DNA of 64,000 nt, taken from Escherichia phage vB_EcoM_EC001. The position numbers were made by a program, and so were the translations under genes. Each line of letters starts with the position of its first letter. The stretch's first letter is position 1. This document shows, one piece after another, positions 35,759 through 63,124 of this stretch. Below the pieces are notes generated by a model. That model was not told the DNA's origin. It worked only from the letters and a program-made list of their open reading frames with translations, and did not search any database. The DNA is taken from sequence record MN445185.1; one strand, written 5' to 3'.

Positions 35759-36577
35759 GTGATAAGACCAATTTTAAAATGGATGGGTGGTAAGAGTCGT
35801 GTACTGCCCGAGCTGCTACAGGTGTTTCCGGATGCTGAGTATTTCGTTGAACCTTTTGTGGGCGCAGGGTCAGTGTTTTTAAACACTAAATACCCGAACT
35901 ATATTCTCGGCGACACGAACCCGGACTTAATCGAGTTACTGACCATGGCGCGCGATCGTCCGGAAGCGCTGATTCTGGAAGCAAAGGCGCTCTTTGCAAA
36001 TGGGACGGACCGCGGTCTGTACATGAAACGGCGTGAGGAATTTAACAGCGAGACAACCACGGGGAAACCTAATCTCCAGCGCGCCGCGATGTTCCTGTAT
36101 CTTACACGTCATGGTTACAATGGTTTGTGCAGATACAATCAGTCGGGTGGGTTTAACGTGCCCTATGGTCAACACCCGAACGGTGTCTATTTCCCTGAAG
36201 AGGAAATTCTGGCGTGGGCAAAACGTTGTTCGGAAACCAACGTCGAGCTGCTCTGCGCGGACTTCCGCGATATCCTAAATAAATGCCCATCTAACGCTGT
36301 GATATACGCTGACCCGCCCTATATCCCTCTTTCGGATACGGCTAAACACGCGCAGTATCACAGCAAAGAATTTTCACAAGCTGACCACCGCGAGTTAGCG
36401 AAACTTTTAAAACAACAAGCTGCCGATGGCAATAAGGTCGTTCTGTCAAACGCAGATACGTTACTCACACGCGATATTTATTACGGCTTTACTTGGCGCG
36501 AAGTTCAGGTAGGTCGATATATGTCTGCGGATGCGAATAAGCGTAAAGCGGTGACGGAGCTAATCGGCACCTTATAA
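35759..36577 (+). CDS. dam: DNA adenine methyltransferase (Dam family, expected GATC specificity)
   Basis: ILKWMGGK vs E. coli Dam FLKWAGGK; FVEPFVGAGSVFLN identical block; catalytic DPPY; LYLTRHGYNGLCRYN vs LFLYLNRYGYNGLCRYN. Confidence 0.85.
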   Translation: MIRPILKWMGGKSRVLPELLQVFPDAEYFVEPFVGAGSVFLNTKYPNYILGDTNPDLIELLTMARDRPEALILEAKALFANGTDRGLYMKRREEFNSETTTGKPNLQRAAMFLYLTRHGYNGLCRYNQSGGFNVPYGQHPNGVYFPEEEILAWAKRCSETNVELLCADFRDILNKCPSNAVIYADPPYIPLSDTAKHAQYHSKEFSQADHRELAKLLKQQAADGNKVVLSNADTLLTRDIYYGFTWREVQVGRYMSADANKRKAVTELIGTL

Positions 36578-39008: not shown

Positions 39009-39046
39009 ACCTCCTTGCCCATGGGTAAGGAGGTCCCTTTTTATTT
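39009..39046 (+). terminator. rho-independent terminator
   Basis: ACCTCCTT...AAGGAGGT stem then CCCTTTTTATTT. Confidence 0.75.
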
Positions 39047-39417: not shown

Positions 39418-39709
39418 GCCCACGCTGACGCACCAGGAACTGCACGTCCGTTTTATTCGGGCGTTCACACCCCCGTTAGGTGGTGAGGTACACGATCGTT
39501 CCGTGGTTGCAGAAGTTAAAGGTATCGGCGAAGAACTAATGACACTGTCTAATATTGTGACGGGTGTTGAGTTCACGTTACCGTTAAACGTATTTCGGTT
39601 TATTCCGCGCGTAAACGAAACGCTGCTCATCGACCGTGTACATCATCGGATTATGGCGCAGGTACATCCTAGCCGTAAAGAGTATGTGCGCTTAGAGATG
39701 ATGGTCTAA
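39377..39709 (+). CDS. hypothetical small protein (start uncertain; 39395 also possible)
   Basis: 3' part of ORF-track ORF 39158-39709 that does not overlap the 39100-39417 gene. Confidence 0.35.
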   Translation: MPQDSFMSNLNPIEPTLTHQELHVRFIRAFTPPLGGEVHDRSVVAEVKGIGEELMTLSNIVTGVEFTLPLNVFRFIPRVNETLLIDRVHHRIMAQVHPSRKEYVRLEMMV

Positions 39710-39716
39710 CGCACGA

Positions 39717-39745
39717 CTTTTCAGATAGATGTTATTTTACTGAAC
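39717..39745 (+). promoter_or_regulatory. conserved promoter-like element, variant B
   Basis: TTTTCAGATAGATGTTATTTTACTGAACC; near-identical to 48116 copy. Confidence 0.5.
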
Positions 39746-39771
39746 CTAACTGTAAAGAAAGGAAAAAGTAG

Positions 39772-40077
39772 ATGGCTAAACAATACATAATTGTTAAACG
39801 CGCAGGTACGACTCTGCTGTACGTGGAGAAAGGTTGTGAGAACACTGCAACCGCCAAGAAACTGAATCTGCAAGGGTTTCTGTATCAAGGTCTCCGCGCG
39901 GGTTTGACCATCACTTTTAAAGGCTTACCACAGGCGAAGAATCTGCGCGTCGTACGTGCAGACGGTGTAGAGCGTGCCTTGGTAGCCGACACCCCGGTTG
40001 ATACTATCCCTGCCAGTAAGAAGGCAGCGAAAGCAACCAAGAAAGTCGACGATAAACGCAAACGCGTTGTCGCTTAA
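39772..40077 (+). CDS. small basic protein with Lys-rich C-terminal tail
   Basis: C-terminus SKKAAKATKKVDDKRKRVVA. Confidence 0.5.
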   Translation: MAKQYIIVKRAGTTLLYVEKGCENTATAKKLNLQGFLYQGLRAGLTITFKGLPQAKNLRVVRADGVERALVADTPVDTIPASKKAAKATKKVDDKRKRVVA

Positions 40078-40083
40078 GTAGTC

Positions 40084-40123
40084 CCCTACCTAACTTCGGT
40101 TAGGTAGGGTTCTTTTTATTTTT
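40084..40123 (+). terminator. rho-independent terminator (UUCG loop)
   Basis: CCCTACCTAAC-TTCG-GTTAGGTAGGG then T-run. Confidence 0.85.
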
Positions 40124-40143
40124 AACCCTCTGAGGGATATACC

Positions 40144-40596
40144 GTGTTTCAATGTTCAGTCGTCAATGATGCGGAATTGGCCGTGTACAAGCAGCGCACA
40201 ATCCGGGCGCTGGATGCTGAAAAACCAGTCGATGTTAAAACGCGTGCAATCATTAGGGCATTTAGCGAATGGCCGAACATCGCAACCGTTTGGGCATTCA
40301 CGGGAGAAGTTCGCAAAGACGGAGACAAGCTTCGTACACGTAGACACCACAGCTTAACATTTGTGGCAACCGAGGCGGGTCTTAAAGACATTAACCATTT
40401 ATTAGAAGGATGGCAGCCGCACGAGTACGGGAAACGTTTTCAGTTAAACTTTACTTGGCTGCGTCAAGAAGGCAATGCGAATCTCTGTTATCCAAGCTGG
40501 ACGTTTAGACTCAACTATCGACCCGACCCAGATGTGGTGGAAAGTGTGATGGAGCACTGGCTCGCACTCGCAATTTTTACAGAACACAACCATTAA
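40144..40596 (+). CDS. hypothetical protein (possible paralogue of next gene)
   Basis: GTG start after GAGGGA; SEWPNIATVWAFTG resembles SYPGATTMWSCHG of the 40625 product. Confidence 0.45.
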   Translation: MFQCSVVNDAELAVYKQRTIRALDAEKPVDVKTRAIIRAFSEWPNIATVWAFTGEVRKDGDKLRTRRHHSLTFVATEAGLKDINHLLEGWQPHEYGKRFQLNFTWLRQEGNANLCYPSWTFRLNYRPDPDVVESVMEHWLALAIFTEHNH

Positions 40597-40624
40597 ATGA
40601 AGACACCCTTAAGGAGAATTAAAG

Positions 40625-41095
40625 ATGCCAGTTTTATACGGCGGCGTGGACCTGGATGTTCTGGGTCGGTTTAAACTACGAACGTCTAAGGCGCTCGTAA
40701 ACGGTTGGGTTGAGAAAGGCGTACGGGATGCGTGTGAGGTCATTTGTAGTTATCCTGGTGCCACGACAATGTGGTCGTGTCATGGACACGGACCATATTC
40801 TAAAAAGAACACACCGGGGGAATTTCATGTGGTGTTCGTTCTTGGCATCGGCTTTGAACACAAAGCACATGAGCTTGTCGCTGAGTTAATGAAAGCGGAT
40901 ATTCCGCCACTGTGGGATTTGTGCATGGCGAGACTCTTGTACCCTGATGAGGATTTCGTCTACGACCTCAGCGAGATCACCCTGAAGAACACGTATAACG
41001 CATGGAAAATAACGTATCGGCATCTGCATACCGAACAAACTCTTCGCGAAATTCGTAAAGTATTCCACACTGTCTGTAAAAAGGTTTTTAACTAA
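40625..41095 (+). CDS. hypothetical protein
   Basis: AAGGAG ribosome-binding site; 156 aa. Confidence 0.55.
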   Translation: MPVLYGGVDLDVLGRFKLRTSKALVNGWVEKGVRDACEVICSYPGATTMWSCHGHGPYSKKNTPGEFHVVFVLGIGFEHKAHELVAELMKADIPPLWDLCMARLLYPDEDFVYDLSEITLKNTYNAWKITYRHLHTEQTLREIRKVFHTVCKKVFN

Positions 41096-41793
41096 TGGCT
41101 AAGCAAAAGAAACCCCGTAACAAAAAGTATAACCCAAAAGCTGCTACAGAGCGTACAGCGCACACCATCGCTGAAAACGCGCTGAACCGCATCACCTTTA
41201 TTGGCAGCTCCATTCGTCGCCTCGGACCGTACGCGGGCCGTGGTTTTCACTTTACGGCAAGTCCTCGTATTCGTGCTATCGCCACAGATATGTTAGTCGG
41301 TGGGCTGTTCGACCAACCGCGACCATGGCATCTTTGGGTGATGCACCTCACTGAACTCGACACCGGTGAAATTGTAACAGAAACCGCAGTTGCCACACTT
41401 GACGATTATACTTTGGCGGACTTCTGTGAACACGCTGAGAAGTTAGTTAAATCGCTACGTCCTGAACAGGAAGAAGGGAAATATTTCGGTTATGCGTTTG
41501 TGGCCGCCCCGAACGAGCGGTACGACTTCAAAGCGGAAGAAGACCAACTCATTGAAAACTTCATGCATTCTGGACTACTTGATACGTCGTTACATCTGTC
41601 GGAAGAACAACAGTTCGTTAGTCGTGCAGAAATGGCCAACCTGCTCGTTGGTTATACTCGGAAGTTTGACGTGACCGTTGAACACGTCAAAGAAGTACCA
41701 GAGATTGTGAGCAAGAAAGACGAGGTGGTGCTTCCGGTTGACGAGGTTGTCAGTAAAGTAGCGACTGCGATAGGGGCAACGGGGGATTACTGA
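41095..41793 (+). CDS. hypothetical protein
   Basis: 232-aa ORF, start overlaps upstream stop. Confidence 0.55.
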   Translation: MAKQKKPRNKKYNPKAATERTAHTIAENALNRITFIGSSIRRLGPYAGRGFHFTASPRIRAIATDMLVGGLFDQPRPWHLWVMHLTELDTGEIVTETAVATLDDYTLADFCEHAEKLVKSLRPEQEEGKYFGYAFVAAPNERYDFKAEEDQLIENFMHSGLLDTSLHLSEEQQFVSRAEMANLLVGYTRKFDVTVEHVKEVPEIVSKKDEVVLPVDEVVSKVATAIGATGDY

Positions 41794-42002
41794 TGAATCT
41801 ACGTTGGCCGATCGCGGCTGCTGTGTTGTTTTGTATTTATATCGCCATCAGCACCAGTACCCGCACTGCAGAACGTCGCGAGACCGCAACCAGTACGTTT
41901 AGGATGTGCATTGACCGCGTAGACCCGAACAGTACCACTTATCCTGACGCGGTGAACGCGTGTCGCAAAGCGGTTGCTGAGATATTGAAAGAGGAAAAAT
42001 AA
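41793..42002 (+). CDS. small membrane protein
   Basis: hydrophobic N-terminus WPIAAAVLFCIYIAIST. Confidence 0.45.
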   Translation: MNLRWPIAAAVLFCIYIAISTSTRTAERRETATSTFRMCIDRVDPNSTTYPDAVNACRKAVAEILKEEK

Positions 42003-42229
42003 TGGAAAACCTTACGCCGATTGAGATAGTGGCGCTATTCGACCGTTACGTATACGGACAAACGCAGGCAAAGAAAATGCTGGCGATTGCGCTACGTAAT
42101 CGATATCGTGCCAATAAACTCAACGTAGTGGACCGTATGTCGGTCCACAAACAGAACCTTTTAATAGAAGGTCCAACAGGCACGGGTAAAACGGCGTTGA
42201 TGCGTGAAGAAAAACAGAAACAAAAGTGA
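42002..42229 (+). CDS. truncated HslU (ClpY)-like AAA+ ATPase N-terminal fragment, 75 aa, ending just after Walker A
   Basis: gap-free manual alignment to E. coli HslU residues 1-70 gives about 33/70 identities, including GQ..AK, AIALRNR and GPTG.GKT; no Walker B or later motifs follow; own AGAGGA ribosome-binding site. Confidence 0.7.
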   Translation: MENLTPIEIVALFDRYVYGQTQAKKMLAIALRNRYRANKLNVVDRMSVHKQNLLIEGPTGTGKTALMREEKQKQK

Positions 42230-42237
42230 GGTAAAGG

Positions 42238-43245
42238 ATGGCGAAGCTCGTTTCGTTTTCAGCAGGGTTGGATTCCACCTGGATAATGTATCAGCTGCTA
42301 TGCAAAGCACCGGCCAATGAAGCACGACATGTCCGTCCTGCGTATTTCTCCATGTGGAATGGAGGTAACGCGAACTTCATGGAAATTCTTTGTAGCGTGG
42401 CCATTGTTGAACGGTTGATGGATAGACACCATGCACAAACCGAACATGTTACATGGGCGGTGCTCGGGGAAGAGAACTTCCAGCCTGTCGTTACCGCTGG
42501 ATATGCTAACGGCTGGTCGCCTCTGGTTCAGCAGGGCAATGTTGTTAACGGTCTCGCTAAACTGATGTGTGGTATTACGCGCAAACAGCACCACGCCTAT
42601 GCAGTTGTTGGTTGGAATAAGCTAGATGCGTTGGAGAATAGTCTAGAGCTGGGAGATTGGACATTAGACGAGTACGCTCGCTTAAAGAACCTCTATAGCG
42701 AATTGATGTATTTCCAAGATCATGCCGGTCGCGTTCCACCGCTTCTAACACCTGCGTGGGATAAAGAGAAACTGGAAATGTGGCAGGAGTTGCCGGAAGA
42801 TATTCGTAGGTTGGTACAGGTCAGTAACAACAACAACTACGAATTCGCGATAGACCGTGAGAATAACGTGCTCATCGTTTATGCCCATCCGTCGGCAAAG
42901 TCGCAGAATTATCGTAGTCTTGGTATTACACCGTCAGTGGGATGGGAGATTAAAATCAACGATGCTTACAGACGGGTATGGTGTTCTGCTCTCGGTAGTG
43001 CTATTTCTGCTATGGGTTTGGGCGTACCGGCTTTTGCTAACTTTAAGGACCCGGAAAGAAACCACACGACCTTTACGGTAAGTGAAGATACTAACCGGTT
43101 ATGTATCACATCGTTTACCGCGGAAGAGTGGTGCGCGTATGCGCCACATTTTAAAGCGCTTCAGGAGAAAGAAAAAGAGATAGCGAAAAATGCCAAAGCA
43201 AGTAAAGCTGTGGACGCTCCAACTGGCGAAGTGGCGGATAGCTGA
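42238..43245 (+). CDS. PP-loop ATP pyrophosphatase-like protein (tentative)
   Basis: N-terminal SFSAGLDST resembles SGGxDS PP-loop; AAGG ribosome-binding site. Confidence 0.35.
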   Translation: MAKLVSFSAGLDSTWIMYQLLCKAPANEARHVRPAYFSMWNGGNANFMEILCSVAIVERLMDRHHAQTEHVTWAVLGEENFQPVVTAGYANGWSPLVQQGNVVNGLAKLMCGITRKQHHAYAVVGWNKLDALENSLELGDWTLDEYARLKNLYSELMYFQDHAGRVPPLLTPAWDKEKLEMWQELPEDIRRLVQVSNNNNYEFAIDRENNVLIVYAHPSAKSQNYRSLGITPSVGWEIKINDAYRRVWCSALGSAISAMGLGVPAFANFKDPERNHTTFTVSEDTNRLCITSFTAEEWCAYAPHFKALQEKEKEIAKNAKASKAVDAPTGEVADS

Positions 43246-43573
43246 AAAACGGAATTTGCCAAAGCTGGATATAACGGTTAAGTCGGGGCTGAAATATTTG
43301 GCACCCGACTGGGACTTTCTGATGGACTACAAGAAGTCTGACAAAGGCCCCGACGCAGAAGCTGCGTATACCAAACGCTACCTGCAGAAACTTAGTCGGT
43401 TGTTTGATGAAGACACTGATAAGTTGATAGAGATTCTCCGCCAGGGCGAGGTCGTACTAATGTGCTATTGCCCACCGGGGAAATTCTGTCATCGCCACTT
43501 GCTAGTTTCTTACCTTATTGAAATCGGTGAGTGGTTCGGTTATGAAGTAATTTACATGGGCGAGTTATCGTAA
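43190..43573 (+). CDS. small protein with CxC...CHRH motif
   Basis: VLMCYCPPGKFCHRHLL; I weakly recall a similar Cys/His pattern in the DUF488 family; start uncertain because of 56-nt overlap. Confidence 0.35.
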   Translation: MPKQVKLWTLQLAKWRIAEKRNLPKLDITVKSGLKYLAPDWDFLMDYKKSDKGPDAEAAYTKRYLQKLSRLFDEDTDKLIEILRQGEVVLMCYCPPGKFCHRHLLVSYLIEIGEWFGYEVIYMGELS

Positions 43574-43980: not shown

Positions 43981-43994
43981 CAGCGTACGAGTAG

Positions 43995-44033
43995 GCTACC
44001 ACACGATCATATGTGTGGTAGCTTATTTTTTTG
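43995..44033 (+). terminator. rho-independent terminator
   Basis: GCTACCACAC...GTGTGGTAGC stem then TTATTTTTTTG. Confidence 0.8.
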
Positions 44034-44048
44034 TTTCTGGAGGCGTTA

Positions 44049-53643: not shown

Positions 53644-54441
53644 ATGTCTTTTACTTCAAAACAGAATCTGCTAAAACTCATCAACGAAGAGAATAAGATA
53701 AGCCCACCGCTTACCTTTGACGATGTTGATATCGGACTGCCGGAGGTTGTGTCAGTAGACGGTCGTGATTCGGAGGTGGTACTAACCTCGAAAATGCGCG
53801 GTGATGAAGGTACGCAAGTGATTGTGGACTACCATCGTCGTCCATTAGAGGACTACCTTACAGGCGATGTTGCCTTTGGCGATGAAGATGTGCATACCAC
53901 GCACGACTTACTCGCGGCGATTAACGAGCGTTTTAATCTGTCTATCTTACCTGAGGATATCGAAGATAACCCCATTGAAGGACAGACGCACACAGTCGTT
54001 GCTGTTGAAACTTCCCACGAGTGGAGAAGTCAAGCGGTCATCGAGCTGAAACCTGCTACACCTCTGGCAGAAGTAATAACCAATACAGAGTTGAGCGGTC
54101 TTCTGTACCCGGATCACCAGGACATCCAGTTGGGTCAGGCGTATATCTATTCGCGCGACATCGATTGTAGCCACATCTCTCGTTTCCTGAGCCTCTTAGC
54201 GGTCGGTATCGAAGTAGATGACACGGCGTTAGCAATCGAACTCAACAAATGTGTTCCTGAGATTTGGGTGGCTGAAGATACCCCATCCCCGTATAACTTG
54301 CGTGGTGCTACTGTCGTATTCGACGGCGTACCTGCAGACTTACCGGGAGCAAATACGGCGTTCGCGAAAGTCGTGTCAGTGCAACTGACCGATAAATGTA
54401 CGAACTTCCAGGGCAGCCTCAACTTACACTTTAACAACTAG
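53644..54441 (+). CDS. paralogue-family protein P1 (N-module A + LHYN-type C-module)
   Basis: shares N-terminal pattern and C-terminal CTNFQGSLNLHFNN with neighbours. Confidence 0.6.
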   Translation: MSFTSKQNLLKLINEENKISPPLTFDDVDIGLPEVVSVDGRDSEVVLTSKMRGDEGTQVIVDYHRRPLEDYLTGDVAFGDEDVHTTHDLLAAINERFNLSILPEDIEDNPIEGQTHTVVAVETSHEWRSQAVIELKPATPLAEVITNTELSGLLYPDHQDIQLGQAYIYSRDIDCSHISRFLSLLAVGIEVDDTALAIELNKCVPEIWVAEDTPSPYNLRGATVVFDGVPADLPGANTAFAKVVSVQLTDKCTNFQGSLNLHFNN

Positions 54442-54451
54442 GAGGGTATAG

Positions 54452-55294
54452 GTGTCTATTTACGATAAGCCCTCGAAAGAGATGTTGTTAGATGCTATTA
54501 ACCGACAGAACGGATTAACGGCCAATCCACTCACATGGGAGCAGGTTGCAACTGGCTTCCCTGAGTCTGTCCAAACGCCTGGCGCTGACCGGAATACACG
54601 TGTACTCTTATACGGGTTGAACGGCAAGGGCTACAAAGGCAACGTTACGCTCGAATACGACCGTATCGAAATGGAAATTCTGTTCAGGAACGTAATACCG
54701 GTAGTCGTTGCCGACCCGGTAAATAAACTCTCTGAGTTGTTGCCGTTTCTGAATGCGAAATACGGCTTGTCTTTAGTTGCCGATGATATCGTTGACCAGT
54801 CAGTAAAAGATTTGGGAGAAAGCTGGTTAATCGATGTGACTATTAAGCCCGGTTGCTTGGCCTGGCAAGGTGGTTTCCGTTTACGCTTTGCGAAGTTCTT
54901 CCCGAACCTGGCGGATGTGGTGACGGATGTTGACCTCAGCGCAATTATCGCACCGTTCGTGGTTGCTAGTAAACCGCAGGCTGAATATGTGGCGTATGGT
55001 TACGATTGGACTGAACTGCAAAAACAGTTCACTACCGATTGGGCTTACAACCGTGCAATCACTGCAGCGGATGTTGAGTTGTTGAATGAAGTGGTGCCAT
55101 TAAAGTTTGCATATGTGACGGGGGCGAATGCGCAACCTGAACAAATTGCACTCCAAGGTGCACGATTTATGGGGATAACTTCAGTCACACCGAACGATAG
55201 TTACAACCCCGATTATCAGCGTGTGGCGATTATCAAGCTAGCTGCGGACAGCAACTACGCCGGTAATCTCATCCTTCATTATCTCCCGATATAA
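54452..55294 (+). CDS. paralogue-family protein P2
   Basis: AGGAGGG ribosome-binding site, GTG start; NRQNGL ... LNAKYGLSL ... NLILHY. Confidence 0.6.
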   Translation: MSIYDKPSKEMLLDAINRQNGLTANPLTWEQVATGFPESVQTPGADRNTRVLLYGLNGKGYKGNVTLEYDRIEMEILFRNVIPVVVADPVNKLSELLPFLNAKYGLSLVADDIVDQSVKDLGESWLIDVTIKPGCLAWQGGFRLRFAKFFPNLADVVTDVDLSAIIAPFVVASKPQAEYVAYGYDWTELQKQFTTDWAYNRAITAADVELLNEVVPLKFAYVTGANAQPEQIALQGARFMGITSVTPNDSYNPDYQRVAIIKLAADSNYAGNLILHYLPI

Positions 55295-55304
55295 GGATTT
55301 TGAC

Positions 55305-56150
55305 ATGCCACTTTTAGCCACAGCTGAAAAGATTATTATCGCGGAGGTTAACGTCGAAAACAATCTCGACTTAAAAGTCGAGGATGTTGTTTTTGGTGTC
55401 CCTGCGATTCCAACGTCTGACGAAGACTTGGCAAAAGCTAACGGTCACAACGCGATGGTGCGTATTCAGGCATTGGCCACGGCTAATGCTATCGGTGCCA
55501 CTACCGTGTACTACGATCGTGTTGACTTCGCAGACATGTTTACCGATCCGGACGGGATTCAACCTTTACGTGTTCCTGCACGTCTCGATGCTGTTTACCA
55601 GATGCATGACGTGGTCGGGTTAATTAACCAGTATTACGGTCTCAGCCTTAAACCTGCAGATGTGGTGAATACCGAAATCGACAGGAAGACATGGCGTGTG
55701 GATCTGATTGCCACGCCCTCTTCTTTAGGTTGGATAGGGCAACAACAGGTACAGCTGTTACCAGGCGATGCGTTGCTTCCTGCAAACTTCGAACCCTTAA
55801 CAGTGATGCCTTACGAGTATCCGTATTTCAACATCAAGGTCGGTCAAGGTGCAGTTTATTCGTATCCCTGGCGCTTTGATAATTTCGCGGAGGAATTTCA
55901 ACGACTAGGTGCTGCGATAACCACAGAACGTCTGGCACAGATTCTCAAAACGGTCACCGGTGATAACTGGACAACATACCGTAACCCTATCGACTTTAAC
56001 CTTCGTGAAGCCGTCGTCGTCTATAACGGGCGTAACAAAGCGGAATTACCAACCAACCCAGCAGTCGACAACGTGCTGATTGTGGAGCTGTCGTTGTACT
56101 GTCTGAATTTTGGCGGGCGTTTGTATTTGCATTACAACGACCCTGATTAA
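55305..56150 (+). CDS. paralogue-family protein P3
   Basis: TTVYYDRVDFADMF, LINQYYGLSL, LYCLNFGGRLYLHYN. Confidence 0.6.
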   Translation: MPLLATAEKIIIAEVNVENNLDLKVEDVVFGVPAIPTSDEDLAKANGHNAMVRIQALATANAIGATTVYYDRVDFADMFTDPDGIQPLRVPARLDAVYQMHDVVGLINQYYGLSLKPADVVNTEIDRKTWRVDLIATPSSLGWIGQQQVQLLPGDALLPANFEPLTVMPYEYPYFNIKVGQGAVYSYPWRFDNFAEEFQRLGAAITTERLAQILKTVTGDNWTTYRNPIDFNLREAVVVYNGRNKAELPTNPAVDNVLIVELSLYCLNFGGRLYLHYNDPD

Positions 56151-56171
56151 TCCTGAGTAAAGGAAGTAAGA

Positions 56172-57083
56172 ATGAAACCTTTAAACAAAACGTCCGATAA
56201 GCTGGTTCTGGATTTTATTAATGAGAAAAACCCAGACGCAGAACTGGAACTTTCTAAAATAACGCTCGGCACACCGACCCCTATTACCGATGAAGGTGCT
56301 GATCGCAATACCAGCATGACCCTGACTGCGAAAAAGAACTCCGGGTACATCGGTACTCAGGACGTGACTTATAATCGCCTGGAAGGCGGTGCGCTGTTCC
56401 GTAATGTAACCGCATACCTCGACGTTAAACTGCCGAAAACCACCACCGACCTGCTGACGACCCTGAACACCCAATACGGATTGAAGCTGACCGAAGACGA
56501 TATCGTTCCGGCGGCTATTCCGGAAAATACCAACCCGCCGCTGACTAACCCGAACGATCCGGACCCAGCACCGGTTGACCACGTCATTACCTTCAAAGAA
56601 GACTGCTACGCTTATCTGGGCAGCATCCCGGTTAAAATCGGTGCTAAGCCTCAGGTTGGTGAACGTCTGAGTCTGGTGGTAACACAAACCAAGCTCGACG
56701 GCTTGGTTTACCCAGATGGTCCAAGCGAAGCGAAGGGTCAGGGCTACATCTACTCTTACGGTGTAGACTGCACAGCAATCGCAGCATTCCTGAAAGTACA
56801 GGCGAAAGGTGTTATCGCTGGCGACTCTGCATTCCCGGTTGAGCTGAATAAAGTTGTGCCGGAACTGTGGGTTGCATCTGATGAGCCTGCGGATTATAAC
56901 CTGAAAGGCGCTAACGTGTTGTACGTTGGTTCTACTACTGACGATGGCACTGCTTCAGGCGACGAACCTAAGAAACCGGTTGAAGGTGCAAACACTGCTT
57001 ACAACCAGGTTCTGCTGCTGCAGCTGGATGACACTCTGTGCACCAACTTCCAGGGTATCATGTACCTGCACTTTAATGCCTAA
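56172..57083 (+). CDS. paralogue-family protein P4, the strongly codon-optimised (likely most abundant) member
   Basis: AAAGGAAG ribosome-binding site; heavy optimal-codon bias; CTNFQGIMYLHFNA; own terminator downstream. Confidence 0.65.
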   Translation: MKPLNKTSDKLVLDFINEKNPDAELELSKITLGTPTPITDEGADRNTSMTLTAKKNSGYIGTQDVTYNRLEGGALFRNVTAYLDVKLPKTTTDLLTTLNTQYGLKLTEDDIVPAAIPENTNPPLTNPNDPDPAPVDHVITFKEDCYAYLGSIPVKIGAKPQVGERLSLVVTQTKLDGLVYPDGPSEAKGQGYIYSYGVDCTAIAAFLKVQAKGVIAGDSAFPVELNKVVPELWVASDEPADYNLKGANVLYVGSTTDDGTASGDEPKKPVEGANTAYNQVLLLQLDDTLCTNFQGIMYLHFNA

Positions 57084-57096
57084 TTAGGCCTCGCTG

Positions 57097-57137
57097 GGAG
57101 GAGGAAATCCTCCTCCTGGCTACTCCTTTCTTTTTTG
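57097..57137 (+). terminator. rho-independent terminator
   Basis: GAGGAGG-AAAT-CCTCCTC then CTGGCTACTCCTTTCTTTTTTGG. Confidence 0.7.
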
Positions 57138-57152
57138 GCCGAGGAGGCTATT

Positions 57153-57992
57153 ATGGCTTTATATAGTCTGTCTCAGCGACAATATCTGTACGATGCGATT
57201 AATGCCGAAAACCCGGATGCTGTGCTACCGATGGGTTTAGACAATGCTATCATCGGCACGCCGAAAGCAATCACACCGACAGCAAGCGGTGCCAATACTG
57301 AGATTATCATTCGTGGTCGTCAAGGTCGTGGCTATATCGGTCCTCAGACGTTCCGTTATAAGCGCTTGTCGCTGAACGACTTATTTAAGAACATGACACC
57401 TCAGGTAACTGCACCGAATGCCTACGGTTGGTTGAACGTGGAGTCGAAACGTACTGCGTTTGCGCAGAACCTGAACGGTCGTTATGGATTAAACCTGGTT
57501 GCAGATGATATCCCAGAACAATACGTTTATCTGAACGTAAACAACACGATGCGTATTAACGCTAGCTGTATCCAATACACTGGCAGCATCACCTTTATGT
57601 CTATCCGGGGTAAGAATAGCCTCGAAGACCTCGTGGTAAACGACATCTTGTTGGCTTTGAACCACCCTGCAGCAGCAAGCACTGGTAAGAAATACATGGG
57701 CTTCTTGACGTACGGGGAAGACTTTACTGACGAAGTGCAGGTTATGGCCTCGTTTAAGAACGGGCGAATGGACGTAGGAAGTAACTTTGATTTGGGTTAC
57801 ACGTCCAATCTGATGGCCACATTGGTCGCACGTGGGGTACCGTCGTTTGATCCGACGAACTGCACAATTACCCGCTACAAAACGAGTGAGTTGGCGACCG
57901 CCAATAAAGCGTACGATAACGTATTGCTGATTACCGGCATTCAGAACGACCCGAAAGTAATCGGCGAGTGTATGTTGCACTACAACAACTAG
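57153..57992 (+). CDS. paralogue-family protein P5
   Basis: GAGGAGG ribosome-binding site, ATG 57153; LNGRYGLNLVADDI; ECMLHYNN. Confidence 0.6.
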   Translation: MALYSLSQRQYLYDAINAENPDAVLPMGLDNAIIGTPKAITPTASGANTEIIIRGRQGRGYIGPQTFRYKRLSLNDLFKNMTPQVTAPNAYGWLNVESKRTAFAQNLNGRYGLNLVADDIPEQYVYLNVNNTMRINASCIQYTGSITFMSIRGKNSLEDLVVNDILLALNHPAAASTGKKYMGFLTYGEDFTDEVQVMASFKNGRMDVGSNFDLGYTSNLMATLVARGVPSFDPTNCTITRYKTSELATANKAYDNVLLITGIQNDPKVIGECMLHYNN

Positions 57993-58002
57993 GAATTAGC
58001 GA

Positions 58003-58890
58003 ATGGCTATTTATCAACCTTCTAAAGACGTCCTGTTGGCAGCAGTGAACGCACAGAACTCGCTTGCTGTTAAGATGACTGACATCATCTGGTCCTCGCC
58101 AAAGGACATCCGTGGTACGGAGAAGGAAACGCTGACTAACCGTAACACGCAAATTAAAATTACGGCAGATGGGGTAACGGGCTCTACCTGGTCGGGTAAG
58201 AAAAATGTCTTCTACAACCGCATGAAAGTCGAAGACTTGTTAGTGCTGATCGGTGACACGTTGGCGATCGGCCCATCCAACGAAACCTTGTATGCGGCCA
58301 TTCCTGGACTGAACCAACGTTACGGTTTTGTTCTGGAAGAAGCTGACCTGCAGGACGCAGATATCGAATGGAACGGTGATAAGACCGAAGGAACTGTGCG
58401 CGTTGTTGCACATCCGGAGTCTATCGGTTGGGTTGGACAGGCGACATTTAAAGTCGTGAAAGGTGATGAGTCGTTAGTCTCTGCAGTCACCACTAACGTC
58501 CTGACCGGTCTGAAATACCCGAACGGTCAGATGGGTTCCGAAAATGTTACTGCGGTCATTGCAGAGGTTTATTCCTACCCGTACAACTTCACCAAATACC
58601 GTGATACTCTGCTGGCATACACGCCAGGTATTCTGTCCGGACAGCCGTTGACGGATATGGTTAACATGCTGAAATATATTACGGGTACGGCATGGGTAGC
58701 GACCACCTCCGCTTCCTACGGTTTGGCGGGTGCGGAGGTTATCAGCGTTGGTCTGAATGACCCTGTTGCAATGCCGACAAACGCGAAGTACAAGTATGCG
58801 CTGGTGTTGAAACTGCCTGTTACCTGTACCACCATCGTCGGAACGTTGTATCTCCAGTTCAACGATCTGGACGATCCAAGCGAGGTATAA
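58003..58890 (+). CDS. paralogue-family protein P6
   Basis: LNQRYGFVL; CTTIVGTLYLQFND. Confidence 0.6.
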   Translation: MAIYQPSKDVLLAAVNAQNSLAVKMTDIIWSSPKDIRGTEKETLTNRNTQIKITADGVTGSTWSGKKNVFYNRMKVEDLLVLIGDTLAIGPSNETLYAAIPGLNQRYGFVLEEADLQDADIEWNGDKTEGTVRVVAHPESIGWVGQATFKVVKGDESLVSAVTTNVLTGLKYPNGQMGSENVTAVIAEVYSYPYNFTKYRDTLLAYTPGILSGQPLTDMVNMLKYITGTAWVATTSASYGLAGAEVISVGLNDPVAMPTNAKYKYALVLKLPVTCTTIVGTLYLQFNDLDDPSEV

Positions 58891-58893
58891 TTG

Positions 58894-59721
58894 ATGATCA
58901 ACTATGCTAAGCCGTCAAACGAGTTGGTCTTTGACCTCATTAACCGGGATAACCCAAACCTACCTATTAAAGCGTCGCCGGCAAACTGCTACGTGGAGAA
59001 AGTGACGCAGGTTCCCGTTAATGCAGCTTCCAACAACCGCAATACGTCGGCACGCTTGCGCGGTATTCAGGGTTCCGGATTTCGAGACGCAATCACCGTT
59101 TACTACGACCGTGTGAACTTAGCGCGGTTATTGCCGTGGGGTCCTTCTGTTCAGGCGCAGTTCGTCACGTTTGACGCGCCCAACCTCCACTCAGCCTTTT
59201 CGGTGCTCTTGGATACTTACGGAGTAAACTTCTCTGCAATCGATATCTATAACCTCCCACTGGCGGGTCCCAATACCCCAAATTACACCAATACACAGAA
59301 CATCGTAGCGCTATCGACATCTCCGGCTTATATCGGTTCTGCGACGTTGCGTTATAACCGTGGTTTACCGGTACTAGATACTTCGGTGAAAACGGATGTC
59401 TTGAATGCGATTCAAGAGCCTATTTCACCGTCTCTCGGTAAGAAGTGTATTGATTTGTTGACGTACGGTATTGACTTTACCGCGTATAAAAACCTACTGA
59501 CAGTAGATGCTTCTGGCCTACCGCAGTGGGCTGGTTTGCGTAAGGTGTTGGATGACCTGGGTATTCCGAACTACGCGGGGCCACTGAACAGTAACACCGT
59601 TCAGGATGTGCCGACATCCACCGCTCAGTTCGCTAACAAATCGTACGACCGCGTGGTTGTCCAAACGGGTATCGATGAGGAAGGCGTGAAAGGCGTGGCG
59701 TACTACCACTATAACAGCTAA
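58894..59721 (+). CDS. paralogue-family protein P7
   Basis: ITVYYDRVNLARLL; GVAYYHYNS. Confidence 0.6.
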   Translation: MINYAKPSNELVFDLINRDNPNLPIKASPANCYVEKVTQVPVNAASNNRNTSARLRGIQGSGFRDAITVYYDRVNLARLLPWGPSVQAQFVTFDAPNLHSAFSVLLDTYGVNFSAIDIYNLPLAGPNTPNYTNTQNIVALSTSPAYIGSATLRYNRGLPVLDTSVKTDVLNAIQEPISPSLGKKCIDLLTYGIDFTAYKNLLTVDASGLPQWAGLRKVLDDLGIPNYAGPLNSNTVQDVPTSTAQFANKSYDRVVVQTGIDEEGVKGVAYYHYNS

Positions 59722-59726
59722 GTGTA

Positions 59727-59752
59727 GGGGCTCTTCGGAGCCCCCTCTTTTG
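59727..59752 (+). terminator. rho-independent terminator (UUCG loop)
   Basis: GGGGCTC-TTCG-GAGCCCC then CTCTTTTGG. Confidence 0.7.
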
Positions 59753-59768
59753 GCGATGCGGAGTCCCT

Positions 59769-61181
59769 ATGCTATTTTACTCGAAGGAGTCGGCACTGCT
59801 TGTATACGACCAAGTCAATCGGGATAACCCTGATTTAGTTGTTAAGCTGACGCCGGCTATCGCTGCTTTAACCAGTGGCCCAACTTCAGTTACGTTAAAC
59901 CAACGTAACACCAAAGCTGTTTTCACCGGGTATCCAGGGACAGGTGTACAAGGTAATGTTACCGTGTACTACGACCGGATTAACCTGGCCTCTTTATTTA
60001 ATTTTGTGCCGACTGTGGCTATCAAAGATACAGTCTTAACGGTACGAGACGCGCTACCTGCAATAAACAACGCTTTGGGGCTTACATTAGTTGCTTCTGA
60101 TTTGCAGTCACCTGACGCAAGTTTACCTAAACCGAGCGCTTCGCCGCAGACGTTGAAATTAAATATCTCAGGTAATTGCCCTGCGTTTACAGGCAGCTTA
60201 ACGATACGTTATACCGTCCCGAGCGGTGCAATTTACCCCGATTCTGGACCTGGCCCTAAAACGTTGCTGCAAGGTAACACTATCGCGGGTTATTTCGGAA
60301 CAACCACAATTGCAGAGTTGTTTACACACTCTCAACTTCTTAATGCCACTATATCGGCCGGTGCGTTACCACCGGTACATTCTGGTGCCGAAGGTTGGTA
60401 CAAGTTCTTTTACCAGGGTAGGGTTATTTACCTTCCGATCAGTCCTGTCGCTAGCTCCATCTCCTGGAATACGTTATATACAAACGGACTCGTTTACGGA
60501 ACAGATGATAATGGTAAATACCCTGCGGCGACGCCCGTTAACCAGGGACGCATCATTAGCTTTACAGGCGCAGACAACAAAAGGTTTTACTTCCGTGTTC
60601 GTCTACCTAGTGCCGGGAAAGACCCATACGTCAGCGGCACCCCAACTGCCGCTGAGTTAGCAGGTAGTGAGTTTGAGATGTTCAACTTTCTGTATAATGG
60701 AACGTGGGACAAACCGATTAACAGTTACTGGACGCTGTTCTGTTTATTGAAAGATACACTGAAGACCAACGTCGCCAATCATCGCATGGCGACGTTGTCT
60801 GGAGCAAGTTGGACAAACTTAGAAAAATCATCGAGTGCGGGCAACTACTACTGGTTCCCGGTGCTGGAGTTGGTGGATAAGTCCACAGTTACCTTGGGTT
60901 TAGAAGATATCCATGGTGCGGTAGATTACAGTCTCCAACCGTGCAGCGTGTCCGCAGAAAACACATTTAGTCTCAAGCCGTTAGTGCTCGGTAATCCGGA
61001 TACTACCGATTTCGAACCGGTAGTTGTTACTTCAGAAAACAGTTTCGCACTGCATCCGCCTGCTTTAATGCTGCCGAAGACAGTCGACTTCCAACCTATT
61101 GCGGCTACCGCTGAAATGTATACGCCCCCTGACAAGACAACGTTAACGTCTCTTAACGGTGAACTGGACGGCTTTAAGTAG
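59769..61181 (+). CDS. paralogue-family protein P8: N-module A + GPGP/GYFG C-module B + C-terminal short repeats; fibre or receptor-binding candidate
   Basis: VTVYYDRINLASLF; YPDSGPGPKTLLQGNTIAGYFG; YYWFPVLELV; repeated xENxFxLxP...DFxP units. Confidence 0.6.
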   Translation: MLFYSKESALLVYDQVNRDNPDLVVKLTPAIAALTSGPTSVTLNQRNTKAVFTGYPGTGVQGNVTVYYDRINLASLFNFVPTVAIKDTVLTVRDALPAINNALGLTLVASDLQSPDASLPKPSASPQTLKLNISGNCPAFTGSLTIRYTVPSGAIYPDSGPGPKTLLQGNTIAGYFGTTTIAELFTHSQLLNATISAGALPPVHSGAEGWYKFFYQGRVIYLPISPVASSISWNTLYTNGLVYGTDDNGKYPAATPVNQGRIISFTGADNKRFYFRVRLPSAGKDPYVSGTPTAAELAGSEFEMFNFLYNGTWDKPINSYWTLFCLLKDTLKTNVANHRMATLSGASWTNLEKSSSAGNYYWFPVLELVDKSTVTLGLEDIHGAVDYSLQPCSVSAENTFSLKPLVLGNPDTTDFEPVVVTSENSFALHPPALMLPKTVDFQPIAATAEMYTPPDKTTLTSLNGELDGFK

Positions 61182-61192
61182 AGGTATCATCT

Positions 61193-62191
61193 ATGTCTTT
61201 TACTTTGCGTTGGAAAAATCCAAACGTAATCCCTACGGTAGTAAAAATCTACCGTGACGTTAAAGATATCACACCAAGCGCTTTGCCTGAACCGATTGCA
61301 ACGCTCTCAAATGGCGAGACAGAATGGCGTGATGCCACCGCCAAACCAGGCGCAATCTATTATTACCTTCTAACGGTAACCGCCAACGGTAAAACAGTAG
61401 CGTCGTCTAGCCAGAAATATACTGTTGAGGTAAAACGCGGGATAGGCCCAATGACTATTCTAAACGGTAACGACCGTTTAGGGTTTATGGGTGAGGTTCC
61501 TTACGACGAACAATGGCTTCCGTCGCAAATGCCACCTGCATTTTTGGCGATGTTCCCTAATCTATTAACCGATCGCGTGGCGTTGTATAAATTTACCCGA
61601 AACGGGAAGATCTATTACATGCTATCTAACACGTCGCAGTTCCCGAATACGCCTGTGGACTGGGCTTCCCTCTATCAAGCTGGTTTAGTCTATGGTACGG
61701 GCGATGCTGGCCCAGAGAACGGCCATGGAACGCTACCGGCCACTCCACAAGACGCTAAGATAGTCCACAAAGGGGATACGTACATCATGCGTCTTCCTCG
61801 CGGCCTGACGATGTCTAGCGAGCCTCCTGCGTATCCTTTCGTAGCTGACTATAATGGGAAAACCCATGATGAAATCGCTTCTCTAACCAACCCGTGTGAG
61901 TATAACGATTTACTTTACACGATGGTTAACGAGGTGCCGTGGAAACAGCGTTGGGCTAACTGGGCAACGAACAGTTATACTTTTCTGGGGCAGGGTACTT
62001 TGGGAACCTCGGCAACGTATTTCGGCGGTGGTGTTCTCTGTATGGAACACGACACCACGGAAGACCGTGTGCTCCATCGTGGTATTTTTAACAATGCCGG
62101 CGGAACACCCGTATCCGCGATTCAGCGTATAAACTATTTATCACCCACCACGAAAGGGCGTTACTACCCTATCTTTGAACTGGTCGAGTAA
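61193..62191 (+). CDS. fibronectin-III-like N-domain + C-module B protein P9
   Basis: AIYYYLLTVTANGKT; LNGNDRLGFMGEVPY; GLVYGTGDAGP; YYPIFELVE. Confidence 0.55.
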   Translation: MSFTLRWKNPNVIPTVVKIYRDVKDITPSALPEPIATLSNGETEWRDATAKPGAIYYYLLTVTANGKTVASSSQKYTVEVKRGIGPMTILNGNDRLGFMGEVPYDEQWLPSQMPPAFLAMFPNLLTDRVALYKFTRNGKIYYMLSNTSQFPNTPVDWASLYQAGLVYGTGDAGPENGHGTLPATPQDAKIVHKGDTYIMRLPRGLTMSSEPPAYPFVADYNGKTHDEIASLTNPCEYNDLLYTMVNEVPWKQRWANWATNSYTFLGQGTLGTSATYFGGGVLCMEHDTTEDRVLHRGIFNNAGGTPVSAIQRINYLSPTTKGRYYPIFELVE

Positions 62192-62200
62192 GGGGCAGTC

Positions 62201-63124
62201 ATGACTATACGGTTAAGCTGGCCGTCCCAAGCCAGCAAAGGTCTTACCGCGATTGAAATCTACCGCAAGGAAGGTTGGAACGCAACAATCGACGTTTACA
62301 ATCCAGGCGCACCCCACGCAACTTTATCGGGCAACGCGGTAGAGTTCGTAGATAATATCGATACCCTGACGAAGAACACAACCTATCGTTATTGGGTAGC
62401 TGCTGTGAAGGACAGTGAACGACTTATCGGCAATCCGATTACGCAAGGATTCTATCCGGACACCGGGCCGGGTCCGCAAACTATTTTGCGTGGTGACTGG
62501 GCTTCAGGTTATTTCGGTACAGTACCGAATACAGAGTTCTTTAATACTGCCGAGTTAAAACTCATGTTAACTGCGCAGCAGGGAAACATGTTTGTCTACG
62601 ACCCTCAGGAATGGCACAAGTTTATTTTCCGTGGGAGAATTGTCTTCTTCCCAGCGACGATGCATTCGAAAACCAACTCGGTACAAATGGCGTATCAGTA
62701 CGGTATGATGTACGGGACCGATGATGTCGGAAGTATTGTTCCGCAGGGAGCCACAGCGACTAAACAAGATTGTAAGGTCACGAAGGATGGTCGTACGTAC
62801 CGTATCCGATTACCTTACGCAGTCCCGTACGACGCTGTTCTCTCAGGACAGGATTACAACAACGGTGAATGGCGAAACACAATGGGCCGTTTGTATCCTG
62901 TCGCTGCACAGTTCGCAGCCCTCGGTCTTGGTGCGATTGACTCACTTGCAAGACAAGGCGCGACTGCGCAGCCGAATGAGTCAGGTGCCGCTGTATTAGC
63001 TCCTTTGTGGAGCAACAATATATTCGCTTATGCGTATGGCACCGTGCCTATGGGGATTAGTAACACCGCAGGTGTCGGGAACTCGGCCACGATATTCTTT
63101 GCTTTTGAATTAGTCTTACCGTAA
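62201..63124 (+). CDS. fibronectin-III-like N-domain + C-module B protein P10
   Basis: TTYRYWVAAV; YPDTGPGPQTILRGDWASGYFG; MMYGTDDVG; FFAFELVLP. Confidence 0.55.
   Translation: MTIRLSWPSQASKGLTAIEIYRKEGWNATIDVYNPGAPHATLSGNAVEFVDNIDTLTKNTTYRYWVAAVKDSERLIGNPITQGFYPDTGPGPQTILRGDWASGYFGTVPNTEFFNTAELKLMLTAQQGNMFVYDPQEWHKFIFRGRIVFFPATMHSKTNSVQMAYQYGMMYGTDDVGSIVPQGATATKQDCKVTKDGRTYRIRLPYAVPYDAVLSGQDYNNGEWRNTMGRLYPVAAQFAALGLGAIDSLARQGATAQPNESGAAVLAPLWSNNIFAYAYGTVPMGISNTAGVGNSATIFFAFELVLP

What the first reader, a model, noticed from the sequence alone, without database searches (positions are those of the whole stretch)
40144..41095. Possible paralogous gene pair with a conserved Trp/His-containing core
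The products of 40144-40596 and 40625-41095 share a colinear pattern (SEWPNIATVWAFTG ... HHSLTFVATEAG versus SYPGATTMWSCHG ... FHVVFVLGIGF), suggesting a local duplication of a domain with unknown function. Similarity is weak and judged by eye.
Basis: seen in the sequence. Interest (0 to 1): 0.2.

Follow-up and report, generated by a model that had tools for sequence, protein, structure and literature searches.

The report
Two diverged TYW3-like jumbo-phage genes
The two adjacent small genes are real but very old relatives of each other, both built on the fold of the archaeal/eukaryotic tRNA methyltransferase TYW3; one keeps that enzyme's signature cysteine motif, the other has lost it, and what either does in a Salmonella jumbo phage is untested.

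Summary
The window is an SPN3US-like Salmonella jumbo phage (Seoulvirus). The two ORFs are SPN3US_0113 (A, 40144-40596) and SPN3US_0114 (B, 40625-41095), both annotated hypothetical.

- **Paralogy.** The eye-judged similarity is real. Pairwise scores are marginal (BLASTP E 5.5; Smith-Waterman z 2.2). Profile-profile comparison is clear: hhalign 94%, E 1e-7, 134 colinear columns, score 49 against 12.6±2.5 for 200 column shuffles. Both fall in PHROG 7413.
- **Family.** Exhaustive HMMER finds a family of about 59 clusters. Its profile aligns to Taw3 at E 1e-7, over the N-terminal helices, the SAM-contacting Asp and the (S/T)xSSCxGR motif, which here reads TxWSCxGH.
This is that motif. B keeps it (TMWSCHGH). 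A has lost Ser, Cys and His (TVWAFTGE), yet is under purifying selection (dN/dS 0.13).
- **Not a recent duplication.** A and B belong to two old subfamilies.
- **Function.** Inferred only. B is probably a SAM-using, Cys-dependent enzyme with a non-wyosine substrate, and A a non-catalytic partner.

It is a new variant of a known fold class, of moderate interest.

The parts
40084..40119 (+). Intrinsic-terminator-like hairpin (11-bp stem, 6 GC pairs, then TTCTTTTTAT) that ends the upstream unit. Gene A is the first gene after it.
   Evidence: sequence.
40144..40596 (+). Gene A (SPN3US_0113 / ACQ60_gp153 orthologue), 150 aa. TYW3-like fold with a degenerate signature motif.
40231..40233 (+). A Asp30. 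This is the column of the SAM-contacting Asp of TYW3 (SsTaw3 D25), and A retains it.
   Evidence: Column counts D 39 of 48 and E 8 of 48. Aligned to VDEDI/VDFDI of Taw3. Role of the Asp from PMC5311493.
40285..40308 (+). A residues 48-55, T-V-W-A-F-T-G-E. This is the degenerate counterpart of the family motif TxWSCxGH. Ser, Cys and His are lost. A is the only one of 48 members with Phe at the Cys column and the only one with Glu at the His column.
40625..41095 (+). Gene B (SPN3US_0114 / ACQ60_gp152 orthologue), 156 aa. TYW3-like fold with the signature motif intact.
40766..40789 (+). B residues 48-55, T-M-W-S-C-H-G-H. This is the family signature TxWSCxGH, aligned column for column with (S/T)xSSCxGR of TYW3/Taw3.
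41095..41793 (+). gp115-like gene (PHROG 6965, function unknown). Its ATG shares one base with B's stop codon. It directly follows the TYW3-like gene(s) in four phage genera, which makes it a candidate functional partner.
   Evidence: Synteny E 6e-91, 8e-54 and 9e-54 in Asesino, Wellington and ChrisDB.
43989..44038 (+). Next strong terminator-like hairpin (17-bp stem plus a T run). It is the probable end of the transcription unit that starts with A.

Best explanation
A and B are two anciently diverged paralogues of a jumbo-phage family of shortened TYW3/Taw3-like proteins.

**Architecture.** Each has the N-terminal two-helix extension and first strand of TYW3, which in TYW3 form the SAM cleft and carry the catalytic motif. 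A single four-stranded alpha/beta unit follows, where TYW3 has the RAGNYA and SHS2 domains together.

**Signature.** The family signature is D...N..PG..T-x-W-S-C-x-G-H, homologous to D...(S/T)xSSCxGR of TYW3.

**The two copies.** B carries the full signature (E30, T48, W50, S51, C52, G54, H55). It is most likely the active protein: a SAM-binding, cysteine-dependent transferase, most simply a methyltransferase. Its substrate would be a nucleic acid or nucleotide other than a wyosine precursor. A keeps the Asp and the fold but has Ala-Phe for Ser-Cys and Glu for His, and it is still under purifying selection. It is most likely a non-catalytic copy: a partner or regulatory subunit, or a pure binder.

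**Expression.** The two genes head an operon with the conserved unknown gene gp115.

**Shown:** paralogy, fold, motif homology, motif state, selection, synteny. **Inferred:** SAM use, catalysis by B, partnership of A and B, and the substrate class.
For: **Paralogy**
- hhalign E 1.2e-7 over 134 columns, score 49.1 against shuffles 12.6±2.5.
- Reciprocal HMM cross-hits.
- Same PHROG.

**Fold**
- Two separately built AF2 models (pLDDT 81 and 92).

**Sequence link to TYW3**
- 30 of 48 family members hit Pfam TYW3 PF02676 (best E 5.5e-7). No other Pfam family is hit by more than one member.
- The family profile against PDB sequences puts 2drv and 2qg3 first (E 0.004 and 0.009).
- hhalign of the family against 15 archaeal Taw3 sequences gives 94.2%, E 1.1e-7. 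It aligns iD..I...lN..PgiaTvWSCsGH with VDedIIPLLdlINS...T.SSCSGR.

**Motif conservation** (of 48 members): D/E30 47, T48 37, W50 43, S51 38, C52 44, G54 45, H55 45, Y124 44.

**Roles of the TYW3 residues** (PMC5311493): Asp contacts the SAM sulfonium, and Asp, Cys and Arg are essential.

**Selection:** dN/dS is 0.13 for A and 0.07 for B.

**Copy number:** these are the only two copies in the SPN3US genome.

**Operon and synteny:**
Against: - No experiment or ligand test exists, and the function is extrapolated from a distant relative.
- The essential Arg of TYW3 is His throughout the family, and the first Ser is Trp.
- B has Glu rather than Asp at the SAM-contact column.
- Sequence homology to TYW3 covers only about 46 N-terminal columns. 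The C-terminal two-thirds gives no sequence signal, and one TYW3 subdomain is missing.
- Neither A nor B on its own hits Pfam TYW3. Family members are mostly below the gathering score of 27 bits.
- Bacteria have no wyosine, and the phage has no TYW1-like enzyme, so the substrate is unknown.
- Gene neighbours are all of unknown function and differ between phage groups.
- Nothing shows that A and B interact.
Confidence: 0.55

Rival explanations
1. The family uses the TYW3 scaffold for a different chemistry. The Arg-to-His change creates a Cys-x-x-His site which, together with the Asp/Glu and a nearby His/Tyr, could bind a metal or act as a thiol-imidazole catalytic pair. The proteins would then be hydrolases, transferases or redox enzymes acting on nucleotides or nucleic acids, not SAM methyltransferases.
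For: - C52 and H55 are the two most conserved residues (44 and 45 of 48). D/E30 is present in 47 of 48. The column of B H68 is Tyr in 27 and His in 14 of 48.
- The Arg essential for TYW3 activity is absent.
- A conserved acidic run follows the motif (GHTxEE).
Against: - What is conserved at sequence level with TYW3 is precisely the part that forms the docked SAM cleft plus the Asp.
- C-x-x-H three residues apart is not a usual catalytic-dyad geometry (general knowledge).
- No coordinates were available to test whether these residues cluster.
Confidence: 0.2
2. Both proteins are non-enzymatic nucleic-acid or protein binders that merely retain the TYW3/RAGNYA-type scaffold, for example regulators or chaperones of infection. 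The conserved motif would be structural.
For: - RAGNYA-fold proteins are often plain RNA or DNA binders (PMC2034487).
- A survives under purifying selection without the Cys and His.
- No pathway partners are recognisable.
Against: - Near-invariance of a polar Ser-Cys-x-Gly-His cluster plus an Asp across about 59 clusters at 15-20% identity is typical of an active or ligand site, not of packing residues.
- A is the exception rather than the rule.
Confidence: 0.15
3. The A-B resemblance, or the TYW3 resemblance, is chance or convergence: short alpha/beta proteins with similar secondary-structure order.
For: - Pairwise statistics are weak.
- Sequence signal to TYW3 is limited to 46 columns.
Against: - The shuffle control puts the A-B profile score about 15 sd above random.
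- The alignments put Asp on Asp and SC-G on SC-G in register.
- Intermediates exist. A-type orthologues in ChrisDB and Wellington still carry WSCEG and LCCGGH.
Confidence: 0.04

Closest known systems
TYW3 / Taw3 (Pfam PF02676, UPF0130; PDB 1TLJ, 2DRV, 2QG3, 2DVK), the SAM-dependent N4-methyltransferase of wyosine/wybutosine biosynthesis in tRNA-Phe of Archaea and Eukarya
   Same: - The N-terminal two-helix extension plus first strand is homologous at sequence level (hhalign E 1.1e-7).
- The SAM-contacting Asp column is conserved.
- The motif is in register: Thr, second Ser, Cys and Gly are shared.
   Different: - 150-170 aa instead of 190-210. Only one alpha/beta unit follows the motif, where TYW3 has RAGNYA plus the SHS2 insert.
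- The essential Arg is His, and the first Ser is Trp.
- The invariant His73 cannot be mapped.
- The host is a bacterium, which lacks wyosine, and the phage has no TYW1/TYW2-like partners.
- Scores fall below the Pfam gathering score.
- A lacks the Cys altogether.
PHROG 7413 (phage protein family, unknown function)
   Same: Both A and B match the whole 156-position profile (E 4e-58 and 2e-53). A public resource therefore already groups the two genes.
   Different: PHROG gives no function, no link to TYW3 and no distinction between motif-intact and motif-degenerate members.
Catalytic/non-catalytic paralogue pairs of nucleic-acid methyltransferases: Trm61-Trm6, METTL3-METTL14, DNMT3A-DNMT3L (from general knowledge, not tested here)
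   Same: One paralogue has an intact active site and one a degenerate site. Both are kept under selection, and here they are adjacent in one operon.
   Different: - Those pairs are Rossmann-fold enzymes with demonstrated heterodimers.
- Here no interaction has been shown.
- The A type also occurs alone (ChrisDB), where it keeps Ser-Cys.
AMMECR1 and other RAGNYA-fold proteins with a conserved Cys (PMC2034487)
   Same: Related fold class with a conserved cysteine, predicted to modify nucleic acid.
   Different: These are not among the top structural hits. There is no sequence signal, and the motif and N-terminal extension are specifically TYW3-like.

Membership tests
TYW3/Taw3 (PF02676) | Invariant N-terminal Asp (SsTaw3 D25) that contacts the SAM sulfonium and is essential (PMC5311493) | tested here: met
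   The column aligned to the Taw3 Asp is D in 39 of 48 family members and E in 8 of 48. A has D30. B has E30, a conservative replacement shared by the B clade.
TYW3/Taw3 (PF02676) | Signature motif (S/T)xSSCxGR, with Cys and Arg essential | tested here: not met
   The family motif is T-x-W-S-C-x-G-H: Arg is replaced by His in 45 of 48 and the first Ser by Trp in 43 of 48. B reads TMWSCHGH, with Thr, Ser, Cys and Gly kept. A reads TVWAFTGE, with only Thr and Gly kept.
TYW3/Taw3 (PF02676) | Invariant His at the end of RAGNYA strand 3 (SsTaw3 H73), involved in SAM binding | tested here: inconclusive
   [not shown]
TYW3/Taw3 (PF02676) | Three-part architecture: N-terminal extension, RAGNYA domain and inserted SHS2 domain (about 190-210 aa) | tested here: not met
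   [not shown]
TYW3/Taw3 (PF02676) | Score at or above the Pfam gathering threshold (27 bits) | tested here: not met
   A and B give no hit at E <= 1. In the nine canonical relatives and one A-type relative (P0025) rescanned, six hit TYW3 at 12.1-25.5 bits over profile positions 6-49 (6-80 in one) of 211. 30 of 48 members hit at E <= 1.
TYW3/Taw3 (PF02676) | SAM binding and N-methylation of a wyosine precursor on tRNA-Phe | not testable with these tools
   This needs biochemistry. From established knowledge, Bacteria lack wyosine derivatives, so the canonical substrate is absent in Salmonella.
TYW3/Taw3 (PF02676) | Occurrence with the other wyosine-pathway enzymes (TYW1 radical-SAM, TYW2/Taw2) | tested here: not met
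   The only radical-SAM genes of SPN3US are SPASM/HxsB-HxsC-like peptide-maturase types, not TYW1. Neighbours of A and B have no such domains.
PHROG 7413 | Full-length match to the family profile | tested here: met
   A covers residues 1-150 on profile positions 1-156 of 156, E 4.3e-58. B covers residues 4-156 on positions 3-154 of 156, E 2.3e-53.
Jumbo-phage 'TxWSCxGH' mini-TYW3 family (defined here) | About 150-180 aa, with D...N..PG..TxWSCxGH...Y..W and the same secondary-structure order | tested here: met
   B meets all of these. A meets length, fold, D30, P44, T48, W50, G54, Y116 and W119, but lacks S, C and H. The family HMM gives E 1e-36 for both.

The most novel reading that the evidence does not exclude
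Jumbo phages carry a previously undescribed enzyme class derived from TYW3: a one-lobe 'mini-TYW3' with a Cys-x-Gly-His centre. It occurs in nucleus-forming phiKZ-like phages and also in RaK2 and phage G.

In Seoulvirus it would work as a catalytic (B) plus non-catalytic (A) pair, possibly together with gp115. It would use SAM to install a new modification on host or phage RNA or DNA, or it would consume or sequester SAM to blunt SAM-dependent host defences.
Probability: 0.2. Interest if true: 0.7.

Novelty: new variant of a known kind. Interest (0 to 1): 0.4.

Why it matters
TYW3/Taw3 is regarded as its own class of SAM-dependent methyltransferase. It is known only from wyosine biosynthesis in Archaea and Eukarya (PMC5311493).

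A shortened, motif-altered branch of that fold is spread through jumbo phages of bacteria, which have no wyosine. This implies a new substrate, and possibly a new chemistry, for the fold.

It also gives a concrete, testable annotation for a set of "hypothetical" genes found in:
- SPN3US-like phages
- Erwinia, Klebsiella and Pseudomonas jumbo phages
- RaK2 and phage G

The intact/degenerate pair offers a natural experiment on pseudoenzyme evolution in a phage.

If the proteins turn out to be plain binders, the result is ordinary. No paper held by the library's full-text search links TYW3 to these phage genes.

Tried and rejected
- **A wyosine-like pathway in the phage: rejected.** SPN3US's two radical-SAM proteins are SPASM/HxsB/HxsC-like, not TYW1.
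- **More paralogues: none.** None were found in the window or in the whole SPN3US genome in six frames.
- **Recent tandem duplication: not supported.** The A and B clades are never sisters in 100 NJ bootstraps. The method is crude, however, and the branches are long.
- **Functional clues from neighbours: none.** All neighbours are unknown PHROGs or lack a Pfam hit, apart from a DUF488-N3a and a distant Dam-like methyltransferase. The contexts of distant homologues in Miami and two metagenomic contigs are unrelated strings of small unknown genes.
- **Other family libraries: no hits for A or B.** PADLOC and NCBIfam gave nothing.
- **gp115: nothing solid.** There is no PDB sequence relative and only a sub-threshold PADLOC hit (E 0.0016).
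- **Tool failures.** The search for homologous proteins with a 47-aa Taw3 fragment found nothing. The afdb50 fold library was unavailable.
- **Literature.** No mention of gp113, gp114 or gp115 in the SPN3US papers searched.

Full report
**Where we are.** The region 39700-41800 is 97% identical to Salmonella jumbo phages SPLA3, the SPFM series and Escherichia phage Lh1B, and about 94.6% identical to SPN3US (Seoulvirus). The two ORFs correspond to SPN3US_0113 and SPN3US_0114, which RefSeq tags as ACQ60_gp153 and gp152. Both are annotated "hypothetical protein".
- Gene A: 40144-40596, GTG start, 150 aa.
- Gene B: 40625-41095, ATG start, 156 aa.

Both have good Shine-Dalgarno sequences. The N-terminus MF(Q/K)(C/Y)SVV is conserved in A orthologues, which supports the GTG start.

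**Is the resemblance real?** The two sequences alone do not settle it.
- BLASTP finds nothing (E 5.5).
It scores 38, against 27.9±4.5 for shuffles (z 2.25; 68 of 2000 shuffles reach it).
- Neither word-index search with A or B retrieved the other protein.

Orthologue profiles do settle it.
- hhalign of the A alignment (7 sequences) against the B alignment (5 sequences) gives probability 94.1%, E 1.2e-7 and 134 colinear columns spanning nearly the full length of both.
- My control with 200 column-shuffled B alignments gave 12.6±2.5 (maximum 20.0), and the reversed profile gave 12.7, against the observed 49.1.
- The B HMM finds the A ORF as the only non-self hit among 757 six-frame ORFs of the window (E 7.5e-4). 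The A HMM finds B only weakly.
- On orthologues in other phages, the cross-family HMM hits are 7.5e-6 to 1.7e-4.
- PHROGs already places both in phrog_7413.

**What the domain is.**
- *Family.* An exhaustive HMMER search with the combined alignment found 59 cluster representatives at E <= 1e-3. Most are 150-180 aa. Their consensus is ...ID..I......N..PG..TVWSCSGH...E...(Y/H).F.....Y..W. The nearly invariant residues are C52, G54, H55 and Y124 in B numbering.
- *Sequence, Pfam and PDB.* 30 of 48 family members hit Pfam TYW3 at E <= 1 (best 5.5e-7), and no other Pfam family is hit by more than one member. The family profile searched against all PDB sequences ranks 2drv and 2qg3 first (E 0.004 and 0.009).
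- *Sequence, archaeal Taw3.* I fetched 15 archaeal Taw3 genes. hhalign of the family against them gives probability 94.2% and E 1.1e-7 over 46 columns.
- *Aligned segment.* It covers the two N-terminal helices, the Asp, and the motif: iD..I...lN..PgiaTvWSCsGH against VDedIIPLLdlINS...T.SSCSGR.
- *Meaning.* According to Currie et al. 2017 (PMC5311493), this is the part of TYW3 that forms the docked SAM cleft. [quoted passage not shown]

**How it differs from TYW3.**
- The family has Trp for the first Ser and His for the essential Arg.
- It is about 40-50 residues shorter.
- After the motif the models show only beta-alpha-beta-beta-alpha, plus an extra hairpin in A. This is one lobe where TYW3 has RAGNYA plus an inserted SHS2 domain.
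- I could not decide which lobe is kept, nor map His73. The C-terminal parts give no sequence signal, and no residue-level superposition was available.
- A and B themselves do not hit Pfam TYW3, and relatives fall below the gathering score.
- The phage has no TYW1-like enzyme. Its radical-SAM genes are SPASM/HxsB-like. Bacteria lack wyosine (general knowledge).

These proteins work on the TYW3 scaffold, but they are not members of the TYW3 family proper.

**The two copies are not equivalent.**

| Position (B numbering) | B | A |
|---|---|---|
| Asp column | E30 (D in most members, E in the B clade) | D30 |
| Motif, residues 48-55 | T48-M-W50-S51-C52-H-G54-H55 | T48-V-W50-A51-F52-T-G54-E55 |
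| Second block | H68 | H68, H69 |
| C-terminal Tyr | Y124 | Y116 |

- A is the only one of 48 members with Phe at the Cys column, and the only one with Glu at the His column.
- More distant A-type orthologues are intermediates: ChrisDB has WSCEGL, Wellington gp142 has LCCGGH and Asesino has WCNEGQ.
- A is not decaying. The ORF is intact in all relatives, 67 of 150 columns are invariant across 57-99% identical orthologues, and dN/dS against SPN3US is 0.13. B has dN/dS 0.07.

**Evolution and context.**
- *Copy number.* Only these two copies exist in the SPN3US genome.
- *Tree.* In an NJ tree of 60 family members the A clade has bootstrap 100 and the B clade 98. They are never sisters.
- *Synteny.* The A-to-B order is shared by Seoulvirus, Erskinevirus (Asesino) and relatives. 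Machinavirus (ChrisDB) has only an A type. Wellingtonvirus has a third-subfamily copy upstream of its A type. The pair is therefore old, and "local duplication" is at best ancient.
- *gp115.* In all four genera the TYW3-like gene(s) are followed directly by a gp115 homologue (PHROG 6965). Here its ATG shares one base with B's stop codon.
- *Operon.* Terminator-like hairpins at 40084-40109 and 43989-44028 bracket a unit that starts with A.
- *Spread.* Fold relatives in BFVD are all uncharacterised jumbo-phage proteins: Erwinia Stratton, Kwan and Simmy50; PhiPA3; 201phi2-1 (two); RaK2; PDCC-1; VP4B; and phage G. tblastn finds family members in Klebsiella Miami-like, Stenotrophomonas, Salmonella SA002 and many Erwinia jumbo phages.
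- *Literature.* No paper in the library's full-text search links TYW3 to these phage genes.

**Mechanism (inference).** The part conserved with TYW3 is the SAM cleft together with the Asp and the Ser-Cys-x-Gly centre. The most economical reading is that motif-intact members such as B bind SAM and carry out Cys-dependent transfer onto a non-wyosine substrate. The altered Arg and the missing lobe would account for the new specificity.

A retains the fold and the Asp but not the catalytic residues, under purifying selection and in the same operon. It is best read as a non-catalytic partner or binder. This is analogous to Trm6, METTL14 and DNMT3L, an analogy from general knowledge that was not tested here.

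My confidence in each step is:
- paralogy, about 0.95
- TYW3-derived fold, about 0.85
- B active and A inactive at this site, about 0.6
- SAM-dependent methyltransfer specifically, about 0.35

The rivals are a metal or thiol-imidazole chemistry created by the C-x-x-H change, and purely non-enzymatic binding.

**Verdict.** It is a pair of anciently diverged, TYW3-derived jumbo-phage proteins, one with an intact signature and one with a degenerate one. It is a new variant of a known fold class, its function is untested, and its interest is moderate.

Noticed in passing
window 40600-41200: Gene B sits in a patch about 600 nt long that is only 86-90% identical to SPN3US, while flanking gene A and gp115 are 95-99% identical. 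dS is 0.65 for B, 0.088 for A and 0.20 for gp115. B here is 99.4% identical to phages Lh1B and SPLA3 but 91.7% identical to SPN3US. Two B alleles therefore circulate in Seoulvirus, and the recombination boundaries fall at the gene's edges.
   Followed up: partly
window 42002-42229 (and 42045-42195): A 75-aa ORF matches only positions 2-70 of a 552-position HslU-like AAA+ PHROG (phrog_4339), so it is a gene remnant. The window has 151 nt where SPN3US has about 830 nt carrying gp117 and gp118. gp117 is HslV-like and annotated 'head maturation protease'. ChrisDB and Wellington still have a full HslU-like gene nearby.
   Followed up: partly
window 42238-43245 and 43190-43573: A 335-aa protein (PHROG 8825) has the N-terminus MAKLVSFSAGLDST, which resembles a PP-loop SGGxDS motif, but it has no Pfam, NCBIfam or PDB hit. 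Its end overlaps a DUF488-N3a ('active subclade') gene. The pair is conserved in Asesino and Wellington. This could be an unrecognised nucleotide-modifying pair in the same operon as A and B.
   Followed up: partly
window 41095-41793: gp115 (PHROG 6965, 232 aa) is unknown, but it is syntenic with the TYW3-like genes in four genera. It has a weak sub-threshold hit to the PADLOC candidate family PDC-S32 (E 0.0016) and no PDB sequence relative.
   Followed up: partly
window 35759-36577: A D12-class (Dam-like) N6-adenine DNA methyltransferase (Pfam E 3.6e-54) lies about 3.6 kb upstream. It is followed by two conserved genes of about 270 aa with unknown function. The same order is seen in Asesino, ChrisDB and Wellington.
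   Followed up: no
window 53644-63124: A run of consecutive + strand ORFs of 265-332 aa (one of 470 aa) corresponds to the block RefSeq annotates as virion structural proteins in SPN3US. It is presumably part of the large 17-member head paralogue family mentioned by Thomas et al. 2016.
   Followed up: no
window 39009-39034 and 39772-40077: There is another strong terminator-like hairpin at 39009-39034. The gene just upstream of A (101 aa, PHROG 12339) has a highly basic Lys-rich C-terminal tail (KKAAKATKKVDDKRKRVVA) and the highest dN/dS of the four genes compared (0.5).
   Followed up: no
SPN3US record NC_027402 140024-142139 (outside the window): Two adjacent radical-SAM genes resemble SPASM/HxsB-HxsC-type peptide maturases (TIGR04115 3e-36, PapB 1e-32, HxsB 5e-21, HxsC 4.5e-07). 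This suggests a RiPP-like or protein-modifying system in this jumbo phage.
   Followed up: partly
LR5359xx SPFM phage records: Several SPFM genome records give fragmented matches for A and B, with 4-7 tblastn pieces and odd protein lengths of 88-142 aa. This looks like frameshift-rich assemblies rather than biology.
   Followed up: no
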